From Escherichia phage Mangalyan, in sequence record OR449013: a stretch of 64,000 nt of DNA, one strand, 5' to 3'. The position numbers and the translations under genes were made by a program. A model generated the notes under the pieces. It made no database searches. It had not been told where the DNA came from and saw only the letters and a program-made list of their open reading frames with translations. Shown here piece after piece: positions 30,228-39,740 of this stretch (its first letter is position 1; the number at the start of each line of letters is the position of its first letter).

Positions 30228-30304
30228 TGGTCTCCACGGAGTGATTCGAACACTCGACCTCCTGATCCCAAATCAGGCGCTCTACCAAGCTGAGCTACGC
30301 GGAG
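30228..30304 (-). tRNA. tRNA-Pro (anticodon TGG)
   Basis: Cloverleaf folded by hand on minus strand: acceptor CTCCGCG/CGTGGAG, anticodon loop TTTGGGA, T-loop GTTCGAATC, encoded CCA. Confidence 0.8.
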
Positions 30305-30315
30305 TATTTACTATT

Positions 30316-30390
30316 TGGTGGCCCTGGGTGGAATTGAACCACCGTCTGGCGATTATGAGTCGCTTGCTTGAACCTTCCAGCTACAGGGCC
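30316..30390 (-). tRNA. tRNA-Met/fMet/Ile2 (anticodon CAT)
   Basis: Acceptor GGCCCTG/CAGGGCC, anticodon loop CTCATAA, T-loop TTCAATT, CCA encoded. Confidence 0.8.
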
Positions 30391-30391
30391 T

Positions 30392-30467
30392 TGGTGCTAA
30401 TGGCAGGACTTGAACCTGCAACCTATTGATTACAAATCAATTGCACTACCAATTGTGCTACATCAGC
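30392..30467 (-). tRNA. tRNA-Thr (anticodon TGT)
   Basis: Acceptor GCTGATG/CATTAGC, anticodon stem ATTGA/TCAAT with loop TTTGTAA, T-loop TTCAAGT, CCA encoded. Confidence 0.8.
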
Positions 30468-30472
30468 AAAAA

Positions 30473-30571
30473 GGTGCTAGGTGATGGAATCGAACCATCT
30501 ATGTATTCAACGACTACCTCGTCTATTTTCAGGATTAAAAATCCTCGCCCTTGCCAAAGGGCTTACCTAGC
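30473..30571 (-). ncRNA. atypical 99-nt tRNA-like gene (Lys-type UUU anticodon loop, ~30-nt variable region)
   Basis: Acceptor GCTAGGT/ACCTAGC, D-arm GCCC-TTTGGCAA-GGGC, anticodon loop TTTTTAA, canonical T-arm GATGG-TTCGATT-CCATC, but ~30 nt lie between anticodon stem and T-stem. Confidence 0.45.
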
Positions 30572-30669
30572 TCAGTATGTTGACCATGTTGCTAGTCGGC
30601 GATGACGACTGTAACATTTGATAATCCGGTTCTGCTTCCGGCTTTCGCTTAATTACAAGGTCAACAATG

Positions 30670-30760
30670 TGGCGGAGAGTAATGGAATCGAACCATCATC
30701 GAGTCATCCTCAATGGGACGGTTTTCAAGACCGCTTGAGCACCATTGCTCCCTACTCTCC
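30670..30760 (-). tRNA. tRNA-Ser (anticodon TGA), class II
   Basis: Acceptor GGAGAGT/ACTCTCC, anticodon loop CTTGAAA, long variable arm, T-loop GGTTCGATTCC, CCA encoded. Confidence 0.8.
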
Positions 30761-30874
30761 TTTATAAATTATACTGATAATGACACTGATTTTCGAGCAG
30801 TTAGTGACTAGTATAAACGACGATAAATATCAATGCCATTATCTGTATTATTTATGCATCTAAAAATATAAATT

Positions 30875-30961
30875 TGGTGGGGAGTGGTGGAGTCGAACCA
30901 CCCGAGTCGCAATGACAATAGATTTACAGTCTACACCGCTACCTCTACGGGATAACTCCCC
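30875..30961 (-). tRNA. tRNA-Tyr (anticodon GTA), class II
   Basis: Acceptor GGGGAGT/ACTCCCC, anticodon stem GTAGA/TCTAT with loop CTGTAAA, long variable arm, T-loop GGTTCGACTCC. Confidence 0.8.
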
Positions 30962-30965
30962 AATT

Positions 30966-31040
30966 TGGCACCCCGTACTGGACTCGAACCAGTGTCAACG
31001 GCTTAGAAGGCCGCTGCTTTATCCACTAAGCTAACAGGGC
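30966..31040 (-). tRNA. tRNA-Arg (anticodon TCT)
   Basis: Acceptor GCCCTGT/ACGGGGT, anticodon stem GCGGC/GCCGT with loop CTTCTAA, T-loop GGTTCGAGTCC. Confidence 0.8.
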
Positions 31041-31136: not shown

Positions 31137-31475
31137 TTAGCTATTGCTAACAGGCTGTATTTCTGTAGTAAATGGCATAAAAGGTGCTGGTTTTTCAGCC
31201 TCTTCTACTACCACCTCTTCCTCTTCACCAAACATCTCATCATATTCTTCCTGCATTCGGTCTGCCTTATCAAGAACATACTCTGCAATGCTTTGACGAA
31301 TATTTTGTTTGGTTTTCGGGTCCAACATCAGCTCTCTTAAAACTTTGTGAGCTTCTGGAACCATCGCTATAAAAGATTCCTTCATATCAAGGATGTTCTT
31401 CTCTAGCTGAATGGCGTTGGACTCCTCTTTCAGAGGTCTGCCTCTACGGCGACGCTTTTTAGTTGTATCCGCCAT
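31137..31475 (-). CDS. hypothetical basic DNA-binding protein (possible small terminase subunit or regulator)
   Basis: ATG at 31475 with GGAGGAAA SD (track ORF extends spuriously to 31595); N-terminal KKRRRRGRP basic tract, acidic C-terminus. Confidence 0.4.
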   Translation of the reverse strand: MADTTKKRRRRGRPLKEESNAIQLEKNILDMKESFIAMVPEAHKVLRELMLDPKTKQNIRQSIAEYVLDKADRMQEEYDEMFGEEEEVVVEEAEKPAPFMPFTTEIQPVSNS

Positions 31476-31486
31476 GTTTCCTCCAT

Positions 31487-31498
31487 TATCACGTGATA
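31487..31498. promoter_or_regulatory. perfect 12-bp palindrome TATCACGTGATA between promoter -10 and SD (candidate operator)
   Basis: Palindrome sits between the -10 element and the SD of the 31475 gene. Confidence 0.4.
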
Positions 31499-31503
31499 GG
31501 TGG

Positions 31504-31532
31504 ATTTTATCATAGCAAATACTGATTGTCAA
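31504..31532 (-). promoter_or_regulatory. sigma70-like promoter (TTGACA-17-TAAAAT)
   Basis: Minus-strand TTGACA (31532-31527) and TAAAAT (31509-31504) upstream of the 31475 gene. Confidence 0.5.
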
Positions 31533-31534
31533 GT

Positions 31535-31760
31535 TCGCCGCAGGGTGGTATTCCCTGCGACTTGTCCAGCGTCCTGGACCAGCAAGACCAAACAAGTGGG
31601 TTACCAGAGGCCTATTACCCGCGCTTCGGCTCGACCTTGTTACAGGTTGGCTGGGGTCACATCGTCATGTGCTGGCTGCCCCTACCATTTTAAGTGTGGT
31701 GCACTATCAAGCCCTCTAAGGGGAACTCAGCCTTCTCCGAACCCTGTTTCAAAGCATCCG
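31535..31760. other. GC-rich ORF-free island A (candidate structured RNA or regulatory element)
   Basis: Visibly GC-rich versus flanks; hairpins such as GCAGGG-TGGTATT-CCCTGC; only shadow ORFs. Confidence 0.3.
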
Positions 31761-31821
31761 GAGATAAAGCCATCAAATTCATCTTTAAATTGGATATTCA
31801 TCATGATACACGAAAACAACC

Positions 31822-32064
31822 TCATTGTAAAGCACAAATAAATAAAACATACTTAATTTGTTTGTTATCAGGCTCAGGGTAGAAGTAGAAGATCTTGCTA
31901 TCACCGATCTGAACACCACCATCCCAACAGCATAGCCCATAACCTGTATTCATACAAGCTAAGTCGTTGGCAAAATCTATTGCATCATCCAGTGCACGAA
32001 ATTCACCTTCATCTTCTAAATAATCCTCATTCATGGAACGAAAAACGAGCTTAACCTTAAACAT
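31822..32064 (-). CDS. hypothetical protein
   Basis: 80-aa ORF. Confidence 0.35.
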   Translation of the reverse strand: MFKVKLVFRSMNEDYLEDEGEFRALDDAIDFANDLACMNTGYGLCCWDGGVQIGDSKIFYFYPEPDNKQIKYVLFICALQ

Positions 32065-32140
32065 AGCATTACCTGTAGACCTCGTAAGTTAAAATTGCAT
32101 CACATCATATTGCAGATCTTATCAGGTAACACTATTTTTG

Positions 32141-32329
32141 TCAACAGATTCCGGCCTTATCCTTCCTGTCTGCGTATTCTTTAATCGCAACCTCATCTGC
32201 ATTAGTGACCAGGTCTTCAAAGTAACTCTCAAGCTCCTCGTCAATGTCAGGAGACCAGCTCTTTTTCCTGTCAGTGTGAATTGCAGACTTGTTGAACTTA
32301 TTACAGTTCTTTGCTACCGGGTTGTTCAT
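32141..32329 (-). CDS. hypothetical protein
   Basis: 62-aa ORF, coupled to upstream gene. Confidence 0.3.
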   Translation of the reverse strand: MNNPVAKNCNKFNKSAIHTDRKKSWSPDIDEELESYFEDLVTNADEVAIKEYADRKDKAGIC

Positions 32330-32339
32330 TAAGCGCTCC

Positions 32340-32918
32340 TCAGCGTTCGTAGTAGATTTTATTTAACATTACCTCATCTTTTGCAGAAAGAATACCGAGA
32401 TATGCATCACCGAATCTACCTGCAACAACCTCTGCATGATACATCACTTCGTTAATATCGTCAAGAGTGATAACTGGATGACCGTATCTCTCTGAGTATT
32501 GTCTCAGAGTGCGATGTAGAGAGTCATCATCATAGGCAGACTTTTTAATATCACAAACACGACGAATAGCCTTGATGTCGAAAAACCCTGTACGATACCA
32601 ACCAAGAAAAAGGTTTCGTGCAGTGTCAACATCCACATCAATACCATCAAGAACCTTATCTACAAGATAGCTGTCATCCTTTGGACCTGCTTCCTTAGTG
32701 CGAATGTAGTTGCCATCTTTTCCAGGTGACAGCTCCTTCTCATCACCAACCTGCATGCCATCATTTGGCGGTGTTAACCACTTATCCGGATGCTTACGAT
32801 CACGAGCGTTAGAATGATTACGCTGGAAACCGGGCTTCCACTTGAAAGTTTTCTCCATCTGTTCTTCATTCTGATAACGTTTTGCAATCTTTTCACGGTC
32901 ATCTTTGCGTGAACCCAT
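32340..32918 (-). CDS. hypothetical protein
   Basis: 192-aa ORF with GAGGAGG SD. Confidence 0.45.
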   Translation of the reverse strand: MGSRKDDREKIAKRYQNEEQMEKTFKWKPGFQRNHSNARDRKHPDKWLTPPNDGMQVGDEKELSPGKDGNYIRTKEAGPKDDSYLVDKVLDGIDVDVDTARNLFLGWYRTGFFDIKAIRRVCDIKKSAYDDDSLHRTLRQYSERYGHPVITLDDINEVMYHAEVVAGRFGDAYLGILSAKDEVMLNKIYYER

Positions 32919-33039
32919 AGCTGCCTCCTCTTCAAGTTATAGAAAAACTCACTGTATCGCTTTGTAACGAGCTTTTCTATCAAACTGGTGCGATTGCATT
33001 ACCTGGTATAGTTTATATAGCTGTGGAGCGATTTAGGGG

Positions 33040-33290
33040 CCTTCTTGTCAGTTTCCACACATAAACTTCATCCAAGCTCGCGCGGGAGACTCTCAACCGA
33101 CTCCTTACGGCGCTGGCAAGCTTTCGTCGGTGGTCCACATCAGTGCTCGGCCTTTGGCCTGCGCTATAGCTTCGCTCCCACACATGTTAACAGACCTGCA
33201 TGTGTGCACTTCTGTTATTGTGTGCACCAAGGAGGCCCGGCATCTCGCCCCTCGTAGGCGAGTGCCAATGAAGGGCCGACACTGCCCATA
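33040..33290. other. GC-rich ORF-free island B (candidate structured RNA or regulatory element)
   Basis: Visibly GC-rich versus the adjacent AT-rich segment; several hairpins (e.g. CTCGCC-CCTCGTA-GGCGAG at ~33244-33262); only a low-complexity shadow ORF. Confidence 0.3.
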
Positions 33291-33300
33291 GTAAGTAATA

Positions 33301-33420
33301 AATTTAAAACATGGTACTTAGGATCTAGTATATTCTACATAAGTTAAGTATATGTACTTAGTACCATAAGTACTAGATCTTTTATTTTTTTATTATTTAG
33401 TTATTTTAGTTATATTCTTT
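33301..33420. promoter_or_regulatory. AT-rich segment with inverted repeats (candidate DNA unwinding element or promoter region)
   Basis: Inverted repeat GATCTAGTA (33322-33330) / TACTAGATC (33371-33379), repeated GTACTTAG motifs, poly-T/A tracts. Confidence 0.4.
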
Positions 33421-33423
33421 ATG

Positions 33424-33505
33424 TGTCCGTATCACGGACAGTTAGTGTCCGTATTACGGGCAGATGTGTCCGCGTGACGGACAGTAGTGTCCGTATCACG
33501 GACAG
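33424..33505. repeat. four tandem 17-bp palindromes (TGTCCGT-N3-ACGGACA) at 21-22-bp spacing
   Basis: Copies at 33424-33440, 33446-33462, 33467-33483, 33489-33505 (first and fourth identical); a degenerate fifth follows. Confidence 0.75.
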
Positions 33506-33579
33506 TTAATAGTATCCGTTCCATGGCGAACATAAAACATACGAATCCTTATAGTATAGATATTTAAGTTTTTACTGGT

Positions 33580-33930
33580 CTAACCAGTTGTTGACATCCG
33601 AATAACTTCTTCTGGTGGCAAAACTTTGGAAAATGTGCATCTTTTACCTCTCCCTTGTGTGGATGTTTCAACCACTCCTGCACATTCTAAAGTTTTAACG
33701 CACGCTGCTGCTTTTGTTTTCTTTATCCCAACATCTGCTGCAATTTTCCTTGTGCTTGGTGTGAAGCGTGAATTTCCTCCAAGCTTATACCAGTTGTGCA
33801 GGTAGCAGTATACGATCTTGTCATACAAGTCAAGAACAACAACCTCCCCAGTTGTGTCATTCAAAACTTTTGACATAGATAGTATTTCAAGGGGGACTTT
33901 AAGATATAGCAGCTTATCCCCATCTTTCAT
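33580..33930 (-). CDS. hypothetical DNA-binding protein (candidate binder of the adjacent palindromic repeats)
   Basis: 116-aa ORF with AGGAG SD; helix-turn-helix-like segment TPSTRKIAADVGIKKTKAAACVKTLECAGVV; repeats lie ~75 bp 3' of its stop. Binding is inference. Confidence 0.4.
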   Translation of the reverse strand: MKDGDKLLYLKVPLEILSMSKVLNDTTGEVVVLDLYDKIVYCYLHNWYKLGGNSRFTPSTRKIAADVGIKKTKAAACVKTLECAGVVETSTQGRGKRCTFSKVLPPEEVIRMSTTG

Positions 33931-33977: not shown

Positions 33978-34532
33978 TTACTCCCTACTGTCAATATCAA
34001 AACTCATTGCAATACGGTATGCCTCCTCTAATGGTAAGAGTCTCCCCCACACATCCCAACCGACATCAAGCTGCCTGCCAAACAACTGTTGTGTGGTTCC
34101 GTGAGCATGACCGAACAGTTGGACTGATCCGTGAGGCTTTCTGTTCCACTTTGCAAACTGGTAATGGCTCATACAGATCAAATTCTTGTTGTGGCGAAGC
34201 TCGTAATAATCTACAACCTCATGACCGAACTCTTTCATAATTCTGACAGTCGTCCTTGTGTCATGGTTGCCACGAACAAGAATAATATGTCCGTTCAACA
34301 TATTTAGAATATCTGGAAGTAAGTTGTTGATATTCTTATCATTAGTGCACGCAATATCTCCCAAGTGGAACACAGTGTCTGCAGGTGACACAACAGAGTT
34401 CCACTTGGCGATGATTCCCGCATTCATACTGTCAAGATTGTGATCATACTGAGATCTGTGTTTTTGACATGAATCAAACTCCATGACCCGCTGATGGAGA
34501 AAGTGTGTGTCGCTTGTTACAAAGTATTTCAT
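33978..34532 (-). CDS. calcineurin-like metallophosphoesterase (putative polynucleotide 3'-phosphatase)
   Basis: ATG at 34532 with GAGGA SD (track ORF starts upstream); motifs SDTHF, GDI, GNHD; starts 7 nt after the kinase stop. Confidence 0.6.
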   Translation of the reverse strand: MKYFVTSDTHFLHQRVMEFDSCQKHRSQYDHNLDSMNAGIIAKWNSVVSPADTVFHLGDIACTNDKNINNLLPDILNMLNGHIILVRGNHDTRTTVRIMKEFGHEVVDYYELRHNKNLICMSHYQFAKWNRKPHGSVQLFGHAHGTTQQLFGRQLDVGWDVWGRLLPLEEAYRIAMSFDIDSRE

Positions 34533-34539
34533 ACATTCC

Positions 34540-34950
34540 TCATTTAAGTTTAATGCAGTTTTTAAGCTGGCGTTCCATACGATCCACAACCTTGTCTGGA
34601 ACATCATGAATGCTTTTATTACCGTGGCGGTTTTCAACCACGATCACGGTATAACTATACCCATGACTGATTGCCATGTCAACATATTCCTGCACATGTT
34701 TTTCTTTTGTAAACGTATTACTTACCACGATACGGTCGTATCCCATACGCATCATATCTTCTACGTTATCTTTGCACCATTTTGCTGCGAGTGTTACTTT
34801 ACTTGCATCCCAGTTGTAATTGCCGTCATCGTCATACCAGAACATGTCGTTCTCAAAATGTGGATACAGACCCTCTAAAGATAGCGCATTTGCCAGTGTT
34901 GATTTGCCAGACCCTGGTAGACCACGCACGATATATAGCATTTTAGACAT
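34540..34950 (-). CDS. polynucleotide 5'-kinase-like P-loop protein
   Basis: ATG at 34950 with GGAGGG SD; P-loop GLPGSGKST resembles the T4 Pnk kinase domain. Confidence 0.6.
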   Translation of the reverse strand: MSKMLYIVRGLPGSGKSTLANALSLEGLYPHFENDMFWYDDDGNYNWDASKVTLAAKWCKDNVEDMMRMGYDRIVVSNTFTKEKHVQEYVDMAISHGYSYTVIVVENRHGNKSIHDVPDKVVDRMERQLKNCIKLK

Positions 34951-34978
34951 AGTGACCCTCCGTTTTAATTTCAACGGT

Positions 34979-35007
34979 AGTATACCTGACTGTTTTGTTA
35001 ATTTCAA
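34979..35007 (-). promoter_or_regulatory. sigma70-like promoter (TTGAAA-17-TATACT) for kinase/phosphatase operon
   Basis: Minus-strand elements in the divergent intergenic region. Confidence 0.45.
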
Positions 35008-35071
35008 GTGTTGACACTAGGTTATTTGTGTGGCAGGATAGACTGACAAAATGACAAATGAGGAACGTATA

Positions 35072-35986
35072 ATGAAGTATTTTAATGCAGACGACCTAGT
35101 TGACAAAGGTCTTGTAACCAGTAGGTATTACCCAGATCTCGGGCTAAAGATCTATAAATATGCCAGAAAAGTATTCTACAACAATCTGTGGCATTTGTCT
35201 CCGCGTTTACTGGAGTGCCGAGGTATTGTTGTTGGCAATGAGGGGAATGTTGTGGCATGGCCTTTCACAAAAGTATTCAACTTAGGAGAAAACTCCACCA
35301 ACCTACCGGACAGTAAACTTGTTACTGCGGTAGAGAAAAAGAACGGATTCCTCGGTGTGGTATCATCTCATAAAGGTGACCTATTGTTCTCAACAACCGG
35401 GTCTCTTGATTCTCCATATTGTAACCTTGCAAAGGAAACCATCCAAGAGCAATGTGGTAATTTAGATCTTATCAAGAAGGTTATGGGCAATGAAAACATG
35501 ACATTCATGTTTGAAATTTGTCACCCTTCAGATCCGCATATTGTTCAAGAAGACCATGGCGCATATTTGATAGGTTGCAGATATAATGATTCTGGAATAA
35601 TGCTACCAGAAGCAGCTTTAGATGGGATTGCCAAATACCTTGGTGCAAAACGTCCTCACACTGTGCGTGAAATTCCGTTCAGCTATGCAAAAGAGTTAGC
35701 TGCAGAAACAAGAGGTGAAGGATATATGATTCGTAAGCCTTACTACCCTTATGATCTGCAGTTGAAGATCAAGTCTCCATACTATCTGGCACGAAAGGCC
35801 GTAATGAGGGGTAAAGCTTGGAAGATTTGGGATGATGATATCTTTAAACGTGTTGACGAAGAGTTTTACGGCATGGTAAACTTCATTCGTAACAACTACA
35901 CAGAGGATGTATGGAACTGCCTCCTGGAGCAGGAACGCCGTGAGATACTTGACTGCTATTTCCACAACGAGGACTATATGCAATGA
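35072..35986 (+). CDS. putative RNA ligase (nucleotidyltransferase)
   Basis: Motif I EKKNGF (K-x-N-G), motif IV EGYMIR, motif V LKIKSP; second ATG 35072 preferred (GAGG SD) over track start 35051. Confidence 0.55.
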   Translation: MKYFNADDLVDKGLVTSRYYPDLGLKIYKYARKVFYNNLWHLSPRLLECRGIVVGNEGNVVAWPFTKVFNLGENSTNLPDSKLVTAVEKKNGFLGVVSSHKGDLLFSTTGSLDSPYCNLAKETIQEQCGNLDLIKKVMGNENMTFMFEICHPSDPHIVQEDHGAYLIGCRYNDSGIMLPEAALDGIAKYLGAKRPHTVREIPFSYAKELAAETRGEGYMIRKPYYPYDLQLKIKSPYYLARKAVMRGKAWKIWDDDIFKRVDEEFYGMVNFIRNNYTEDVWNCLLEQERREILDCYFHNEDYMQ

Positions 35987-36333
35987 AGAAGTTGATTGTG
36001 TGGCTGGATGACTTGAGAGATCCGTCAAATTACGGGCTCCAAGACGCTGTTTGGCTAAAGAATTCCTCCGAGTTTATAGATTTTATTAACGATAATAGAA
36101 AGCTCTACAGACGCGTTTCTGAGTGGCACATGGACAACGACCTTGGAGAGTTGTTCGAAGGGTACGATTGCCTATCTATGTTGGAGGAAAAATTTGTATT
36201 TGGTAAGCCCCCTGTAGTTGACAACGTGAAGATTTTCGTGCATACTTCTAACCCATCAGCGGCTCGTAAATTCATGCTTGCAGCTGACTCGTTTAAAAAG
36301 TTTGGAATAGAGATTAAACAAAACATCTACTGA
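35983..36333 (+). CDS. hypothetical protein coupled to RNA ligase and Sir2-like genes
   Basis: 116-aa ORF whose ATG overlaps the ligase stop. Confidence 0.45.
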   Translation: MKKLIVWLDDLRDPSNYGLQDAVWLKNSSEFIDFINDNRKLYRRVSEWHMDNDLGELFEGYDCLSMLEEKFVFGKPPVVDNVKIFVHTSNPSAARKFMLAADSFKKFGIEIKQNIY

Positions 36334-36341
36334 GGACACTT

Positions 36342-37103
36342 ATGCGACGACTGATTATTATCTCCGGTGCTGGTTTGAGCGCTGAATCTGGTATTCCCAC
36401 TTTCCGATCTGGTAGCACTGCAATGTGGGAGAATTTCAGCATCGATGAGGTGTGCAACATCCACACCTTTGCCAAGAACTACTACAAGGTGCATGACTTT
36501 TACAATGCACGTCGTGTAGCTCTAGGCGGTGTTGAGCCTAACCTTGCACATCTTCGGATCGCTGAGTGGTATTCCCGCTGGTCTGGTCGTGTGATCAACC
36601 TTACCACCAATGTAGATGATTTGCTGGAGCGTGCTGGTGTAAAACATGAAGATATTTTACATGTTCACGGGTATTTGCCAGAAATAGTCTATGAGGACGA
36701 TGAAGGAAGTGACGTCATTAAGGACATTGGATACTCTGAGGTAGATGCAGGAAAGTATACCTGGGTTAAACCTAATGTGGTGTTCTTCGGAGAAGTAGCT
36801 CCGAAGTATACAGACATGTATGACCTGTTGACTTCTCTTACAAGCAATGATATGGTTATCCTTGTAGGGTGTTCCAACACAGTTATCAATTTTAACTGGG
36901 AGCTATTCCCTGCCTGCAATAAGGGCACCAAACTGCTGATCGTTAACAAATACGACTCACAGCATCTAGAGGAGAATGGCATTTCACGTAGTGATATTTA
37001 CCAGTACGAGGATCGCGGCATCCCGGTTTGGTTTAACGGGGCGGTTGACGCTTTCTCTGATAAAACATTCATTGAGACCGTAGAAAACTTTATGGAACTT
37101 TAA
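36342..37103 (+). CDS. Sir2-family NAD-dependent protein (sirtuin-like, lacks Zn-ribbon cysteines)
   Basis: Rossmann motif ISGAGLSAESGIPTFR, TTNVDDL, catalytic HVHG, VVFFGE; no CxxC...CxxC zinc module. Confidence 0.7.
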   Translation: MRRLIIISGAGLSAESGIPTFRSGSTAMWENFSIDEVCNIHTFAKNYYKVHDFYNARRVALGGVEPNLAHLRIAEWYSRWSGRVINLTTNVDDLLERAGVKHEDILHVHGYLPEIVYEDDEGSDVIKDIGYSEVDAGKYTWVKPNVVFFGEVAPKYTDMYDLLTSLTSNDMVILVGCSNTVINFNWELFPACNKGTKLLIVNKYDSQHLEENGISRSDIYQYEDRGIPVWFNGAVDAFSDKTFIETVENFMEL

Positions 37104-37116
37104 AAGGAGACCTTTA

Positions 37117-37830
37117 ATGCTGAATACTAAACTGATCGACAACCTGGAAAAACTGTCTCAGCCTGAAAACTACCTTTGGTCTGCCAACTGGGTGGAAAAC
37201 TGGAACCGTGTGGCAGCTAAAGTGAAAAAATCATACACACCATTCGAATTACAGCTTAGCTTCATTGAGGAAGAGTTCAATGAGGTTTTGGAAGAGCTGG
37301 AGAAAGGTGATGGTGGAGATCACCTGCTAAAAGAGGCCTGCGATCTTCACGTTGTCACAAGTTATGCCGCTTATCTTGTTAATGATAATCACGAAAAGTG
37401 GTCAAACCTGTTTGATAATCCACGAGGTCTTAAGTTCAAGATCGGTGAGTTCTATGATACACTGATCGCTGCGAAAAACACATCCAAGCAAAGAGCGTCA
37501 GCTTACCGCTTAGCGGAGTTGTCAACAGCTTTGCTGTTCCAGCTTCGCGGCGATGTGTGTGGGATGATGCGGAAGGTTCTCAAATCTAATGACAGCAAGT
37601 TTGCACGGATCAACCATCTACGATATTCTCACGGTGCCAGTGCAGATATGTCTACTGAATTGCTCATAGAGTTAGAGATTGAAGATCTTGAGCGTCGTTT
37701 TGGTGGTCGCTACGAAGGTTTCGTTGCTAAAGAGGAGTTCTACAACGGTAATAAAGTTATTATATTCCTTGACAGTAAAGGTAAGATTATGAAGCCTTCG
37801 AGCTTCAAGGATGTAACAGAGTATATTTAA
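37117..37830 (+). CDS. MazG-like nucleoside triphosphate pyrophosphohydrolase domain protein
   Basis: EEEFNEVLEELEKGDGGDHLLKEACDL acidic metal-binding helix pair; extra C-terminal domain of unknown function. Confidence 0.45.
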   Translation: MLNTKLIDNLEKLSQPENYLWSANWVENWNRVAAKVKKSYTPFELQLSFIEEEFNEVLEELEKGDGGDHLLKEACDLHVVTSYAAYLVNDNHEKWSNLFDNPRGLKFKIGEFYDTLIAAKNTSKQRASAYRLAELSTALLFQLRGDVCGMMRKVLKSNDSKFARINHLRYSHGASADMSTELLIELEIEDLERRFGGRYEGFVAKEEFYNGNKVIIFLDSKGKIMKPSSFKDVTEYI

Positions 37831-37836
37831 CAACAT

Positions 37837-37862
37837 AGCCGGGATTACCCGGCTTTACTTAT
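37837..37862 (+). terminator. terminator-like hairpin
   Basis: AGCCGGG-ATTA-CCCGGCT followed by TTTACTTATT. Confidence 0.35.
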
Positions 37863-37892: not shown

Positions 37893-38201
37893 ATGTACAA
37901 GCATTCCAGAGATCTTGAAAAAGATGCTGTGTTTGGCGACCAGATGAAGGAGCTGATCAAACTTATAGGTAGAATGGAAGATAAGTTTGACACTAAAATC
38001 TACATCGATAGCAAGATCTTCAACCACAAAATATGGACAAATGTGTGTGTTGGGCTACATGGTGATAAAGATATTGTAAATTTGGTTGTAATAAAGTTCA
38101 TAGTGTGGCAGAATAGGACTATACGTTATTCCGATCCACACTTACTTGTTTATCCTATAAAAGACCTACTACAGAAGGAGGACTGCAATGCCGTTATTTA
38201 A
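37893..38201 (+). CDS. hypothetical protein
   Basis: 102-aa ORF. Confidence 0.4.
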   Translation: MYKHSRDLEKDAVFGDQMKELIKLIGRMEDKFDTKIYIDSKIFNHKIWTNVCVGLHGDKDIVNLVVIKFIVWQNRTIRYSDPHLLVYPIKDLLQKEDCNAVI

Positions 38202-38457
38202 TCTTGCTAAACCTGTAGAAGCACACCAGTTTGATGGAAGCTCTTCATCAGTATCTGATCTGCAACGGTGGATTGATACAGGTGTGTTTACATCGTCACC
38301 TGTTCGGACCAGAGATATTCGTCGCATGTGTGAGCTTGTTGAGCCGTTTGGTAACCTTGTCCTGTACCAGGGAGATTGGCTAGTTGACTTTATGGGAGAC
38401 TGGTTGGTAATGAGTAAAGAAGAGATGTTTAAAATTTTTAAGGAAGAGGCCGAGTAA
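38188..38457 (+). CDS. hypothetical protein
   Basis: 89-aa ORF with AGGAGG SD. Confidence 0.4.
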   Translation: MPLFNLAKPVEAHQFDGSSSSVSDLQRWIDTGVFTSSPVRTRDIRRMCELVEPFGNLVLYQGDWLVDFMGDWLVMSKEEMFKIFKEEAE

Positions 38458-39740
38458 TGCATCAAATCAAAACAACACTGTACGCACTGAACAAAGATGG
38501 CAGCTACCAACAGTGGAAAGTATTCACTGATGGCGAAAAGGTTATCGTAGAGTTTGGCAAGCTTGACGGTAAATTGCAGTACAAAGAGACGGTATGCACA
38601 CCTAAGAACGTAGGTCGTGCCAATGAGACTACAGCTGAGCAACAGGCCGAGCTTGAGGCTATCAGCAAGTGGGAAAAACAAGTCCGTCTGGGGTATGTTG
38701 AAAACATGGAAGATTGCGAGCAGGGTGTTGATCTTTTACCCATGCTGGTGCATGACTACCTGAAGCGTGGCAAGGCACTTAAACTACCTTGCTGGATCTT
38801 GCGTAAGTTAGATGGCCTTCGTCTGCTTGTTGTTTTCCAAAATGGTGAGCCTAAATTTATTTCCCGTGGTAATAAGTCCTACCCTATTCAAGGAAAGCTT
38901 TTAGAGCAACTTCGTTCTTTCCATTCTACCACTGGGATTAAACAACTTGATGGGGAACTATACATTCATGGTCTTCCTTTGCAGAAAATAGTGTCTCTTG
39001 CTAAACGGTGGCGCACACAGGAAGAGATTCAGGCCGAGATCGATAAAGACTATGAGGCAGATAAAAAACGCCGTCATGCCGCAATTAAGTCCGGCTTATC
39101 AACATACAAAAACTTCAACAAGGTAGATATTCCTGTCGATGTTGAGCCTGTTCGTGATGATTTGCGTTACGGTGGGTACTGTAGCTACGATCTGGAGTAT
39201 CACATTTTTGATATTCCTAGCGACAAGGTGTGGTGGGATCCCGAAACAGAGTCTGGACGCTGCAAGGATCTTATGGATGCAGAGGATACCGTTACCACTC
39301 TGATGCTTGACCATATCAAGGTTGTTGACGCAGAGCTTGCGTACACAGTTGATCATTGCGAAGAATCTGTTGGTATATTCATGTCCGAAGGATATGAAGG
39401 TACCATTATGCGTAACTTCTGTGGTAAATATGAGTACGGTCAGAGAACATCTGAAGCATTGAAATGGAAAAAGTTCAACGACGCAGAGGTGAAAGTTATT
39501 GACGTTGAGAAAGATAAGAATGATGAAGGTGTTCTTATCTGTGTTGACAAGGAAGGTATTGTTGTTAAAATGAAGATGAAAGGTACGCACGAGGAGCGTA
39601 GCTATGACAGAATGCAGGAAATGATCGGCAAGTTTGTCACCTTCAAATATCAAGCAAGGACAGAAGACAACAACTACCAATTCCCTGTCGGTATCTGCGT
39701 CCGAAATGTTAACCCAGACACTTGGGAGGTGCTGGAATAA
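38457..39740 (+). CDS. ATP-dependent DNA ligase
   Basis: Motif I LRKLDGLR (KxDG), motif IV EGTIMR, motif V LKWKKF; 427 aa. Confidence 0.7.
   Translation: MHQIKTTLYALNKDGSYQQWKVFTDGEKVIVEFGKLDGKLQYKETVCTPKNVGRANETTAEQQAELEAISKWEKQVRLGYVENMEDCEQGVDLLPMLVHDYLKRGKALKLPCWILRKLDGLRLLVVFQNGEPKFISRGNKSYPIQGKLLEQLRSFHSTTGIKQLDGELYIHGLPLQKIVSLAKRWRTQEEIQAEIDKDYEADKKRRHAAIKSGLSTYKNFNKVDIPVDVEPVRDDLRYGGYCSYDLEYHIFDIPSDKVWWDPETESGRCKDLMDAEDTVTTLMLDHIKVVDAELAYTVDHCEESVGIFMSEGYEGTIMRNFCGKYEYGQRTSEALKWKKFNDAEVKVIDVEKDKNDEGVLICVDKEGIVVKMKMKGTHEERSYDRMQEMIGKFVTFKYQARTEDNNYQFPVGICVRNVNPDTWEVLE

What the first reader, a model, noticed from the sequence alone, without database searches (positions are those of the whole stretch)
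33978..35986. Split RNA-repair cassette: P-loop polynucleotide kinase, metallophosphatase and RNA ligase in divergent arrangement
A Pnk-like P-loop kinase (GLPGSGKST) and a calcineurin-type metallophosphoesterase (SDTHF, GDI, GNHD) are separate tightly coupled minus-strand genes, divergent from a nucleotidyltransferase with RNA-ligase-type motifs. Functionally this equals the T4 Pnk plus Rnl healing-and-sealing pathway, but with the phosphatase as a separate metallophosphoesterase rather than a fused HAD domain, an architecture better known from bacterial Pnkp systems.
Basis: partly seen in the sequence, partly recalled or inferred. Interest (0 to 1): 0.6.

Follow-up and report, generated by a model that had tools for sequence, protein, structure and literature searches.

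The report
Phage tRNA-repair gene cassette, already described
The three genes are real and almost certainly let this rV5-type E. coli phage mend cut RNA (probably tRNA), but the cassette is already annotated in over 100 near-identical phage genomes and a 2022 comparative-genomics paper described it using this very phage as the prototype.

Summary
The window is a Vequintavirus (98.9% identical to Escherichia phage HdK5). It carries a calcineurin-type metallophosphoesterase (MPE, 33978-34532, minus), a 136-aa P-loop kinase (34540-34950, minus, 7 nt apart), and a divergently transcribed Rnl1-family RNA ligase (35072-35986).

The ligase keeps every T4 Rnl1 catalytic residue, and its model matches T4 Rnl1 and fungal Trl1 best. 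The kinase model matches the T4 Pnk and bacterial Pnkp kinase domains best. The MPE has a complete metal site.

Across 38 dereplicated ligase lineages, 33 keep the MPE nearby and 31 keep the kinase. Gene order is shuffled, and some lineages carry kinase::ligase fusions, which argues for a functional unit.

- The ligase heads an operon with cREC, a Zn-less Sir2 and a MazG-like gene.
- The divergent layout is a genus-specific rearrangement.
- The MPE belongs to the aq_1665 clade, not the Pnkp/lambda-phosphatase clade.

Iyer et al. 2022 (PMC9503650) already describe this neighbourhood, "prototyped by Escherichia phage V5". I found no biochemistry. The result is ordinary, and interest is low.

The parts
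33978..34532 (-). Calcineurin-type metallophosphoesterase, 184 aa (aq_1665 / PHROG 547 family). Predicted 3'-end healing enzyme: a 2',3'-cyclic phosphodiesterase and/or 3'-/2'-phosphomonoesterase.
   Evidence: Matches Pfam Metallophos_2 and Metallophos above gathering and PHROG 547 at 2e-51. The profile hits PDB 1xm7 at 9e-25. Across 40 homologues D8, H10, G58, D59, G88, N89, H90, D91, H123, G141, H142 and H144 are invariant. An MPE is present next to the ligase in 33 of 38 lineages. Family members are fused to RNA_ligase (PF09414) and to HAD_SAK_2.
34540..34950 (-). Stand-alone P-loop kinase, 136 aa. Predicted polynucleotide 5'-OH kinase.
34951..35071 (.). 121-bp divergent intergenic region between the kinase-MPE operon and the ligase operon. 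It lies at the genome-wide switch of gene orientation and GC skew.
   Evidence: The sequence and RBSs are. There is a sigma-70-like site on the minus strand (TTGAAA-17-TATACT, 35007-34979) upstream of the kinase, which is a consensus match only. The GC skew changes sign at about 34-36 kb.
35072..35986 (+). Rnl1-family ATP-dependent RNA ligase, 304 aa (311 aa if started at 35051), with a short all-helical C-terminal domain.
   Evidence: Matches Pfam RNA_lig_T4_1 at 1.5e-14. The profile hits T4 Rnl1 2c5u at 2e-13, with the LECRG, K-x-F, K-x-x-G, FE, EG and KIKS motifs aligned. Invariant residues include R57, K74, F76, K96, G99, E155, E223, G224, K239 and K241 (311-aa numbering; full list). The AF2 model has pLDDT 92. 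Foldseek top hits are Trl1-LIG and T4 Rnl1 at E about 1e-12, whereas cellular DNA ligases and a Rhizobium phage ligase score only E>=3e-3 (ASFV DNA ligase about 1e-5).
35983..36333 (+). cREC protein (cyclic-phosphate-processing receiver-like domain), 116 aa. Its start overlaps the ligase stop by 4 nt.
   Evidence: Matches Pfam PF20274 cREC_REC at 3e-15 and PHROG 1479. Iyer et al. 2021 and 2022 predicted it to be a cyclic phosphodiesterase.
36342..37103 (+). Sir2-family protein, 253 aa. The GAGxS, TxNxD and HG motifs are present, but no cysteine lies between the HG motif and KPNVVFFGE, where I recall canonical sirtuins carry the four Zn-ribbon cysteines.
   Evidence: Matches Pfam SIR2 at 5.5e-27 and PHROG 2162 at 3e-109. 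It falls below all NCBIfam CobB cutoffs. The sequence was read directly. Iyer et al. predicted it to act like KptA/Tpt1 on RNA 2'-phosphate.
37117..37830 (+). MazG-like nucleotide pyrophosphohydrolase, 237 aa. It is the last gene of the ligase operon.
   Evidence: Matches PHROG 671 'nucleotide pyrophosphohydrolase' at 6e-22. It has no Pfam hit. Iyer et al. 2022 list it as part of the neighbourhood.
37837..37854 (+). GC-rich hairpin terminator that closes the ligase-cREC-Sir2-MazG operon.
   Evidence: Found by the terminator scan. The same site is annotated as a terminator in HdK5.

Best explanation
This is a phage RNA (most likely tRNA) end-healing and sealing system.

The proposed sequence of events is as follows. 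A metal-independent ribonuclease, such as an anticodon nuclease from a host defence system or a toxin, cuts an RNA and leaves 2',3'-cyclic-phosphate and 5'-OH ends. The stand-alone binuclear metallophosphoesterase opens and removes the 3'-terminal phosphate. The small P-loop kinase phosphorylates the 5'-OH. The Rnl1-type ligase, adenylylated on K96 (K89 from the 35072 start), joins the 3'-OH to the 5'-PO4.

In Vequintavirinae the ligase is also co-transcribed with cREC, a Zn-less Sir2 and a MazG-like pyrophosphatase. These probably add an NAD+-dependent branch that deals with 2'-phosphate or cyclic-phosphate products.

What is shown here: gene structure, family assignments, intact catalytic residues, structural neighbours, and conserved linkage and fusions. 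What is inferred: every enzymatic step, the substrate (tRNA), and the biological trigger.
For: - Ligase: all residues that I recall as essential in T4 Rnl1 are invariant and align. The high-confidence model's best matches are tRNA ligases.
- Kinase: its best structural matches are polynucleotide and tRNA-linked kinases. The general-base Asp aligns with T4 Pnk D35.
- MPE: the metal-binding motif set is complete.
- Linkage: in 38 ligase lineages below 70% identity, the MPE is within 8 kb in 33, the kinase in 31, and both in 29. Orders vary (MPE-LIG-KIN, KIN-LIG-MPE, LIG-KIN-MPE).
- Fusions: kinase::ligase in 11 loci, and MPE::RNA_ligase and MPE::HAD_SAK_2.
- Substitution: in Streptomyces phages the same ligase sits near a T4-type bifunctional Pnk instead, which suggests functional equivalence.
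- A separate ATP-dependent DNA ligase lies at 38457-39740, so the Rnl1-like enzyme is not needed for DNA.
- A seven-gene tRNA cluster lies 3 kb away.
- An independent published prediction describes the same neighbourhood in phage V5.
- There is precedent for MPE-type 2',3'-cyclic phosphodiesterase healing in CthPnkp and lambda phosphatase (PMC2190708, listed).
Against: - I found no biochemical or genetic data for any member of these three subfamilies.
- The MPE's only close solved relative, aq_1665, has no known function.
- The ligase scores far below the T4 RnlA equivalog cutoff (37 bits against 242) and has a much shorter C-terminal domain than T4 Rnl1, so tRNA specificity is not established.
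- A DNA ligase is also a frequent neighbour (12 of 38 lineages).
Confidence: 0.75

Rival explanations
1. The kinase and MPE process small molecules rather than RNA ends. Candidates are NAD+/ADP-ribose derivatives or cyclic-nucleotide immune signals. Under this reading the block is an NAD/ADPr or anti-signalling module that merely sits next to an RNA ligase.
For: - Iyer et al. call the kinase a 'nucleotide kinase' and allow the phosphoesterases to process ADPr>P.
- The more distant MPE relatives found in the PDB are phosphodiesterases that act on small substrates, such as GpdQ, Rv0805, YfcE and ApaH.
- Frequent neighbours are PRPP-synthetase-like (16 of 38 lineages), Nampt-like (15 of 38) and Macro (6 of 38) genes, plus Sir2 here.
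Against: - The kinase is covalently fused to the RNA ligase in 11 loci.
- The MPE family is fused to an RNA ligase and to an RNA-repair HAD domain.
- Linkage to the ligase holds in 29 of 38 lineages, whereas Sir2 and cREC are present in only 4-5.
- The best structural neighbours of the kinase act on polynucleotides or tRNA.
Confidence: 0.12
2. The kinase and MPE heal DNA ends (5'-OH and 3'-phosphate) for the neighbouring ATP-dependent DNA ligase during replication or repair. The Rnl1-like protein would then be accessory.
For: - A DNA ligase is within 8 kb in 12 of 38 lineages and in the window (38457-39740).
- There is a weak similarity of the MPE to the ligase-associated DNA-damage endonuclease PdeM (TIGR04123, E 2.6e-4, 20 bits against a cutoff of 150).
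- T4 Pnk also acts on DNA (my own knowledge).
- The block lies at the GC-skew minimum next to a putative origin.
Against: - The PdeM match is far below threshold.
- The fusions are to RNA ligases, not DNA ligases.
- Linkage to the RNA ligase is much tighter and more frequent than linkage to the DNA ligase.
Confidence: 0.06
3. The ligase serves mainly a non-catalytic or developmental role. One possibility is tail-fibre attachment, as for T4 gp63. Another is routine maturation of the phage's own tRNAs. Neither would be counter-defence repair.
For: - Many GenBank records and PHROG 562 label the protein 'RNA ligase and tail fiber protein attachment catalyst'.
- A phage tRNA cluster that includes an aberrant 99-nt tRNA-like gene lies 3 kb away.
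Against: - The tail-fibre label is transferred by homology only.
- All ligase catalytic residues are invariant across the family, which implies selection for catalysis.
- The partners are end-healing enzymes.
- The ARAGORN intron search gave only a dubious 5-nt 'intron', so there is no evidence for protein-dependent tRNA splicing.
Confidence: 0.05

Closest known systems
Phage sirtuin-centred RNA-repair neighbourhood, type 2, 'prototyped by Escherichia phage V5 and Proteus phage Mydo' (Iyer, Burroughs, Anantharaman, Aravind 2022, Viruses 14:1977, PMC9503650, section 3.7.3 and Fig. 5f)
   Same: It is the same locus in the same phage genus: a T4-like tRNA ligase, cREC, a kinase, Sir2, MazG and a calcineurin-like phosphoesterase (one search compared).
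   Different: Nothing of substance differs. The paper is centred on the sirtuin and calls the phosphoesterase 'occasional'. A census centred on the ligase shows that the MPE and kinase are the constant partners (33 and 31 of 38 lineages) and that Sir2 and cREC are the lineage-restricted additions (4-5 of 38). The paper's functions are predictions, not experiments.
Bacteriophage T4 Pnk (PseT) + Rnl1 (gp63) tRNA repair pathway that counters the PrrC anticodon nuclease
   Different: - The kinase is a 136-aa stand-alone protein without the HAD phosphatase domain.
- The phosphatase is an unrelated binuclear MPE.
- The ligase is about 70 aa shorter, has a different and small C-terminal domain, and scores only 37 bits against the 242-bit cutoff of the T4 RnlA equivalog model.
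- The kinase lacks the R38 equivalent.
Bacterial Pnkp (Clostridium thermocellum Pnkp/Hen1; Capnocytophaga Pnkp1-Rnl-Hen1)
   Same: It uses a P-loop kinase, a metallophosphoesterase and an ATP-dependent ligase for RNA end healing and sealing. The kinase profile and model hit the CthPnkp and Pnkp1 kinase domains.
   Different: - Here there are three separate proteins rather than one polypeptide.
- No Hen1 methyltransferase was seen among the genes examined around the cassette (Pfam/PHROG scans and the HdK5 annotation).
- The ligase is Rnl1-type. By my own recollection, the Pnkp ligase is Rnl4-type.
- The MPE belongs to the aq_1665 clade, and the profile search gave no hit to a Pnkp phosphatase or lambda-phosphatase chain at E<=1.
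Fungal/plant Trl1 + Tpt1 tRNA splicing ligation (cyclic phosphodiesterase, kinase, Rnl1-like ligase, then NAD+-dependent 2'-phosphate removal)
   Same: The ligase model's top Foldseek hits are Trl1 ligase domains. The operon contains a predicted cyclic phosphodiesterase (cREC) and an NAD+-using enzyme (Sir2), which parallels CPD and Tpt1.
   Different: The enzymes are unrelated: cREC is not a 2H CPD, and a sirtuin is not a KptA/Tpt1 ART. Dependence of the ligase on a 2'-PO4 is untested. Most lineages with this ligase lack Sir2 and cREC.

Membership tests
Rnl1-family ATP-dependent RNA ligase (Pfam RNA_lig_T4_1; T4 Rnl1 / Trl1-LIG) | Sequence match to the family model above the curated threshold | tested here: met
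   PF09511 scores 54.8 bits against a gathering score of 28.3, E 1.5e-14. The profile of 37 homologues hits T4 Rnl1 2c5u at E 2.3e-13.
Rnl1-family ATP-dependent RNA ligase (Pfam RNA_lig_T4_1; T4 Rnl1 / Trl1-LIG) | Nucleotidyltransferase motifs I (KxxG lysine nucleophile), III, IV and V, plus the Rnl1-specific upstream Arg and K-x-F | tested here: met
   R57, K74, F76, K96, G99, E155, E223, G224, K239 and K241 are invariant in 37 sequences. They align with T4 R54, K75, F77, K99, G102, E159, E227, G228, K240 and K242. The list of essential T4 residues comes from my memory of Wang, Ho and Shuman 2003.
Rnl1-family ATP-dependent RNA ligase (Pfam RNA_lig_T4_1; T4 Rnl1 / Trl1-LIG) | Fold closest to Rnl1/Trl1 rather than to DNA ligases or Rnl2 | tested here: met
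   In Foldseek against the PDB, Trl1-LIG and T4 Rnl1 score E 4e-12 to 1.5e-11, Rnl3 about 1e-11 to 1e-9, Rnl5 and Rnl2 1e-6 to 1e-4, ASFV DNA ligase about 1e-5, and cellular DNA ligases and a Rhizobium phage ligase at or above 3e-3.
Rnl1-family ATP-dependent RNA ligase (Pfam RNA_lig_T4_1; T4 Rnl1 / Trl1-LIG) | T4 RnlA equivalog (same function and same tRNA-specific C-terminal domain) | tested here: not met
   TIGR02308 scores 37.4 bits against a cutoff of 242. The C-terminal domain is about 65 aa of short helices, compared with about 120 aa in T4 Rnl1 by my own recollection.
Rnl1-family ATP-dependent RNA ligase (Pfam RNA_lig_T4_1; T4 Rnl1 / Trl1-LIG) | ATP-dependent sealing of RNA 3'-OH/5'-PO4 ends | not testable with these tools
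   This requires an enzyme assay.
Polynucleotide 5'-hydroxyl kinase (T4 Pnk / CthPnkp kinase-domain clade) | P-loop GxxGxGKS/T and the general-base Asp about 20 residues downstream | tested here: met
   GLPGSGKST is present, and D35 is invariant. D35 aligns with T4 Pnk D35.
Polynucleotide 5'-hydroxyl kinase (T4 Pnk / CthPnkp kinase-domain clade) | Structure closest to Pnk kinase domains | tested here: met
Polynucleotide 5'-hydroxyl kinase (T4 Pnk / CthPnkp kinase-domain clade) | Arg that contacts the 5'-nucleotide phosphate (T4 R38) and the lid Arg (T4 R126) | tested here: inconclusive
   The position equivalent to R38 is W38 (F or Y in homologues). An invariant R108 in the ENRHG motif may correspond to the lid Arg, but it lies outside the aligned region.
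Polynucleotide 5'-hydroxyl kinase (T4 Pnk / CthPnkp kinase-domain clade) | Phosphorylation of 5'-OH RNA or DNA ends | not testable with these tools
   Only contextual support is available: fusion to the RNA ligase in 11 loci.
Bacterial Pnkp-type phosphatase (lambda-phosphatase-like MPE of CthPnkp) | Binuclear metallophosphoesterase motifs DxH, GD, GNH(D/E), H and GHxH | tested here: met
   D8, H10, G58, D59, G88, N89, H90, D91, H123, G141, H142 and H144 are invariant.
Bacterial Pnkp-type phosphatase (lambda-phosphatase-like MPE of CthPnkp) | Specific sequence relationship to the Pnkp / lambda-phosphatase clade | tested here: not met
   The profile of 40 homologues hits only aq_1665 (1xm7, 9e-25) strongly. 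GpdQ, Rv0805, YfcE and ApaH appear weakly. No Pnkp phosphatase or lambda-phosphatase chain appears at E<=1. That such entries exist in the PDB (4J6O, 1G5B) is my own recollection.
Bacterial Pnkp-type phosphatase (lambda-phosphatase-like MPE of CthPnkp) | Single kinase-phosphatase-ligase polypeptide partnered with Hen1 | tested here: not met
   There are three separate genes. No Hen1-type methyltransferase was seen in the scans of flanking ORFs (roughly 31.1-39.7 kb) or in the HdK5 annotation of the wider region.
Phage sirtuin/cREC RNA-repair neighbourhood (Iyer et al. 2022, type 2) | Co-located T4-like tRNA ligase, cREC, kinase, Sir2 and MazG, with or without a calcineurin-like phosphoesterase | tested here: met
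   All six are found at 33978-37830. The paper names phage V5 as the prototype. The window is 98-99% identical to rV5-type genomes.

The most novel reading that the evidence does not exclude
In Vequintavirinae the pathway may not be a simple T4-style repair. It may instead be a bacterial-virus analogue of eukaryotic Trl1/Tpt1 ligation. Under this reading, cREC (or the MPE) opens the 2',3'-cyclic phosphate to a 2'-phosphate, and the Rnl1/Trl1-like ligase seals the break. The Zn-less sirtuin then uses NAD+ to remove the junction 2'-phosphate, and the MazG-like enzyme clears the by-product. An RNA 2'-phosphotransferase activity has never been demonstrated for any sirtuin. Iyer et al. 2022 proposed this, but it is untested.
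Probability: 0.2. Interest if true: 0.65.

Novelty: already known. Interest (0 to 1): 0.22.

Why it matters
tRNA-cleaving defences, such as PrrC, RloC, PARIS and retron- or OLD-type effectors, are increasingly recognised. Only the T4 Pnk/Rnl1 repair route has been studied experimentally.

This cassette is a widespread alternative. The ligase occurs in 662 isolate phage genomes, including the Vequintavirinae and Pakpunavirus groups that are used therapeutically. Biochemical characterisation would therefore be useful, and it could assign a function to the large aq_1665 MPE family and to the 130-aa kinase family.

As a discovery, however, the finding adds little. The genes are already annotated, and the neighbourhood has been published with this phage as its example.

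Tried and rejected
- Single-sequence phmmer against the PDB found nothing meaningful for the ligase or the kinase. Profiles were needed.
- NCBIfam gave no above-threshold names for any of the six proteins.
- Five literature searches looked for experimental work on the rV5-type ligase, kinase or MPE, or for Vequintavirus RNA repair. None was found.
- A search for aq_1665/COG4186 function found nothing relevant.
- I tested the idea that the cassette splices an intron-containing phage tRNA. ARAGORN in intron mode reports only a forced 5-nt 'intron' in the aberrant 99-nt tRNA-like gene, so I rejected the idea as unsupported.
- I looked for a substitute phosphoesterase in the kinase::ligase fusion loci that lack the MPE. 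Pfam found none within the flanks of L053.
- I checked whether the 'divergent arrangement' defines the system. It does not, because every locus outside Vequintavirus proper is co-directional.
- I scanned the flanking small ORFs (31137-32918 and 37893-38457). All belong to PHROGs of unknown function.
Full report
**Identity of the window.** The 3-kb stretch around the finding is 98.9% identical to Escherichia phage vB_EcoM_HdK5. It is 95-99% identical to 109 phage records, almost all rV5-like Vequintavirus. In HdK5 the three genes are already annotated as 'putative phosphoesterase or phosphohydrolase', 'polynucleotide kinase' and 'RNA ligase A'.

**Observation.**
- The kinase runs from ATG 34950 (RBS GGAGGG) to the stop at 34540-34542.
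- The metallophosphoesterase (MPE) starts at ATG 34532 (RBS GAGGAA), 7 nt after the kinase stop, and ends at 33978. The two are a coupled minus-strand pair.
- The ligase most likely starts at ATG 35072, not 35051. This start has an RBS, agrees with the GenBank CDS, and matches the homologue consensus 'MKF.VDDL'. The first five residues of the longer ORF are disordered in the model.
- Pfam matches are Metallophos_2/Metallophos for the MPE, AAA_33 for the kinase and RNA_lig_T4_1 for the ligase, all above gathering thresholds. PHROGs agree.

**Ligase.**
- A search of 5.8 billion proteins found 1,680 relatives, nearly all about 300 aa.
- In an alignment of 37 relatives at 42-49% identity, the invariant residues include R57, G58, K74, F76, K96, N98, G99, E155, E223, G224, K239 and K241 (full list).
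- The profile hits T4 Rnl1 (2c5u, E 2.3e-13). These positions align with LECRG, K-F-F, K-E-D-G, F-E, E-G and K-I-K. By my recollection of the T4 Rnl1 mutational analysis, these are the residues essential for ligase activity.
- The AlphaFold model is confident (pLDDT 92.3).
- Its best Foldseek matches are fungal Trl1 ligase domains and T4 Rnl1 (E about 1e-12), followed by archaeal Rnl3. Cellular DNA ligases and a Rhizobium phage ligase appear only at or above E 3e-3; ASFV DNA ligase scores about 1e-5.
- It is not a T4 RnlA equivalog (37 bits against a cutoff of 242), and its helical C-terminal domain is only about 65 aa.
- The phage has a separate ATP-dependent DNA ligase at 38457-39740.

**Kinase.**
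- The 136-aa protein belongs to a very large family of stand-alone kinases of about 130 aa (more than 7,989 hits).
- Invariant residues include the P-loop, D35, N78-T79 and the E106-N107-R108-H109 motif.
- Its profile hits Pnkp1, PSTK, T4 Pnk and the CthPnkp kinase domain at E 4e-5 to 1e-3. D35 aligns with T4 Pnk D35.
- The T4 R38 equivalent is not conserved.

**MPE.**
- An exhaustive search found 11,557 representative clusters.
- The classical DxH, GD, GNHD, H and GHxH residues are invariant.
- The only strong solved relative is Aquifex aq_1665 (1xm7, E 9e-25), a structural-genomics protein of unknown function. No Pnkp-type or lambda-phosphatase chain is hit.
- Longer family members are informative: MPE+HAD_SAK_2 (the 'Swiss-army-knife' RNA-repair HAD), MPE+RNA_ligase (PF09414), MPE+HD and MPE+EndoVII.

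**Comparative context.** Using the ligase alignment, I fetched 80 IMG/VR loci and searched their ORFs with the window's proteins.
- The MPE was found in 63 of 81 loci and the kinase in 67 of 81. Some absences are truncated contigs.
- After dereplication to 38 ligase lineages below 70% identity, the counts are MPE 33, kinase 31, both 29, cREC 4, Sir2 5, MazG-like 5 and DNA ligase 12.
- Gene order varies (MPE-LIG-KIN, KIN-LIG-MPE, LIG-KIN-MPE, LIG-MPE-KIN), but the three stay together.
- Eleven loci encode a single kinase::ligase protein of about 430 aa. Pfam confirmed both domains for L053.
- Every locus outside Vequintavirus proper is co-directional. The divergent arrangement occurs only in HdK5 and in the one IMG/VR Vequintavirus locus, L002. 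It coincides with the genome-wide switch of gene orientation and GC skew.
- Among isolates, the ligase is in 662 phage records, including Vequintavirinae, Pakpunavirus, Otagovirus-like, Vibrio, Acinetobacter and Streptomyces phages.
- PaP1 has phosphoesterase ... ligase-'ATPase'-PRPP synthetase-Nampt.
- A Streptomyces phage pairs the ligase with a T4-type bifunctional Pnk instead.
- Other recurrent neighbours are PRPP-synthetase-like (16 of 38), Nampt-like (15 of 38), Macro (6 of 38) and dCMP deaminase (6 of 38) genes.

The ligase is the first gene of a tight operon.
- cREC (35983-36333) overlaps the ligase stop by 4 nt and matches PF20274 at 3e-15.
- Sir2 (36342-37103) matches at 5.5e-27. No cysteine lies between the HG motif and KPNVVFFGE, where I recall canonical sirtuins carry the Zn-ribbon cysteines.
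- The MazG-like pyrophosphohydrolase (37117-37830) matches PHROG 671.
- The operon is closed by a hairpin terminator at 37837-37854.

**Literature.** Iyer, Burroughs, Anantharaman and Aravind (2022, PMC9503650) describe exactly this neighbourhood. [quoted passage not shown] They propose that the sirtuin acts like KptA on RNA 2'-phosphates. Their 2021 jumbo-phage paper defines cREC and notes that calcineurin-like phosphatases can replace HAD phosphatases in phage RNA repair. I found no experimental work on these proteins.

**Mechanism.** The best-supported model is end healing and sealing of RNA cut by metal-independent ribonucleases.
1. The MPE removes the 2',3'-cyclic or 3'-phosphate. CthPnkp and lambda phosphatase provide a precedent (PMC2190708, listed).
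2. The kinase phosphorylates the 5'-OH.
3. The Rnl1-type ligase seals the break.
4. In Vequintavirinae, cREC, Sir2 and MazG add a predicted NAD+-dependent branch.

Family assignment, catalytic-site integrity, structural neighbours, linkage and fusions are shown here. Every catalytic step, the tRNA substrate and the counter-defence role are inferred. The rival explanations have some contextual support but fit the fusions and linkage less well. They are small-molecule NAD/ADPr or signal processing, DNA-end healing for the neighbouring DNA ligase, and tail-fibre attachment or tRNA maturation.

**Verdict.** This analysis adds three modest points:
- In a ligase-centred view, the MPE and kinase are the core partners, while Sir2 and cREC are lineage-specific add-ons.
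- Natural kinase::ligase and MPE::ligase fusions exist.
- The divergent layout is a Vequintavirus-specific rearrangement.

Novelty is 'already known', and interest is low.

Noticed in passing
window 33423-33508 (within the non-coding stretch 32920-33580): There are four tandem 21-22-nt copies of a palindromic unit, GTGTCCGTATCACGGACAGTTA (core TGTCCG-N5-CGGACA). They lie just 3' of the 116-aa HTH gene at 33580-33930 (Pfam HTH_36/DUF6945; PHROG 12838 'replication initiation protein'). They also sit next to the cumulative GC-skew minimum and strand switch (about 34-36 kb). The array looks like iterons or operators and is a candidate replication origin.
   Followed up: partly
window 30473-30571 (minus strand), within the tRNA cluster 30228-31040: This is an aberrant 99-nt tRNA-like gene. 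ARAGORN reports a 4-base anticodon 'atcc', or Gln with a 5-nt 'intron'. Rfam scores it at 37.5 bits for tRNA, above gathering. The anticodon arm AGGA-UUUUUAA-UCCU could present a UUU (Lys) anticodon, and there is a long variable arm. By my own knowledge, tRNA-Lys(UUU) is the target of PrrC and PARIS. The gene could therefore be a cleavage-resistant or decoy tRNA that is relevant to the repair cassette.
   Followed up: partly
L038, L040, L043, L045, L046, L048, L050, L053, L054, L057, L058 (e.g. L053:7527-8825): These metagenomic phage contigs encode a single protein of about 430 aa, with the small kinase fused N-terminally to the Rnl1-type ligase (AAA_33 + RNA_lig_T4_1). No MPE is detectable within 8 kb.
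   Followed up: partly
P0385, P0272, P0321, P0389 (relatives of the window MPE): Members of the aq_1665-type MPE family occur fused to an Rnl2/5-type RNA ligase domain (PF09414), to HAD_SAK_2, to an HD_4 domain and to endonuclease VII.
   Followed up: no
L082 (Pseudomonas phage PaP1) and 15-16 of 38 ligase lineages, e.g. L039:11754-12623 and L028:4671-6266: The MPE-ligase-kinase trio frequently sits beside PRPP-synthetase-like and Nampt-like NAD+ salvage genes. In 6 lineages it also sits beside a Macro-domain gene. This NAD+ link extends beyond the Sir2-bearing Vequintavirinae.
   Followed up: partly
window 36342-37103: The phage Sir2 has the GAGxS, TxNxD and catalytic HG motifs. No cysteine lies between HVHGY and KPNVVFFGE, where I recall canonical sirtuins carry the four Zn-ribbon cysteines. 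It also falls below all NCBIfam CobB cutoffs.
   Followed up: no
GenBank records MG0656xx ('Campylobacter phage C2, C12, A12a ...'): In the two searches, 18 and 23 unannotated records labelled as Campylobacter jejuni phages were 97-98% identical to E. coli rV5-type phages over this region. This host label is surprising and may reflect contamination or mislabelling.
   Followed up: no
L004/L005 (Phapecoctavirus-like) versus L003/L006/L008 (Seunavirus-like): Within Vequintavirinae the accessory set varies. phi92/Phapecoctavirus-type loci keep cREC and MazG but lack Sir2. Some loci (L007, L009, L013) keep Sir2 and MazG but lack a detectable cREC.
   Followed up: no
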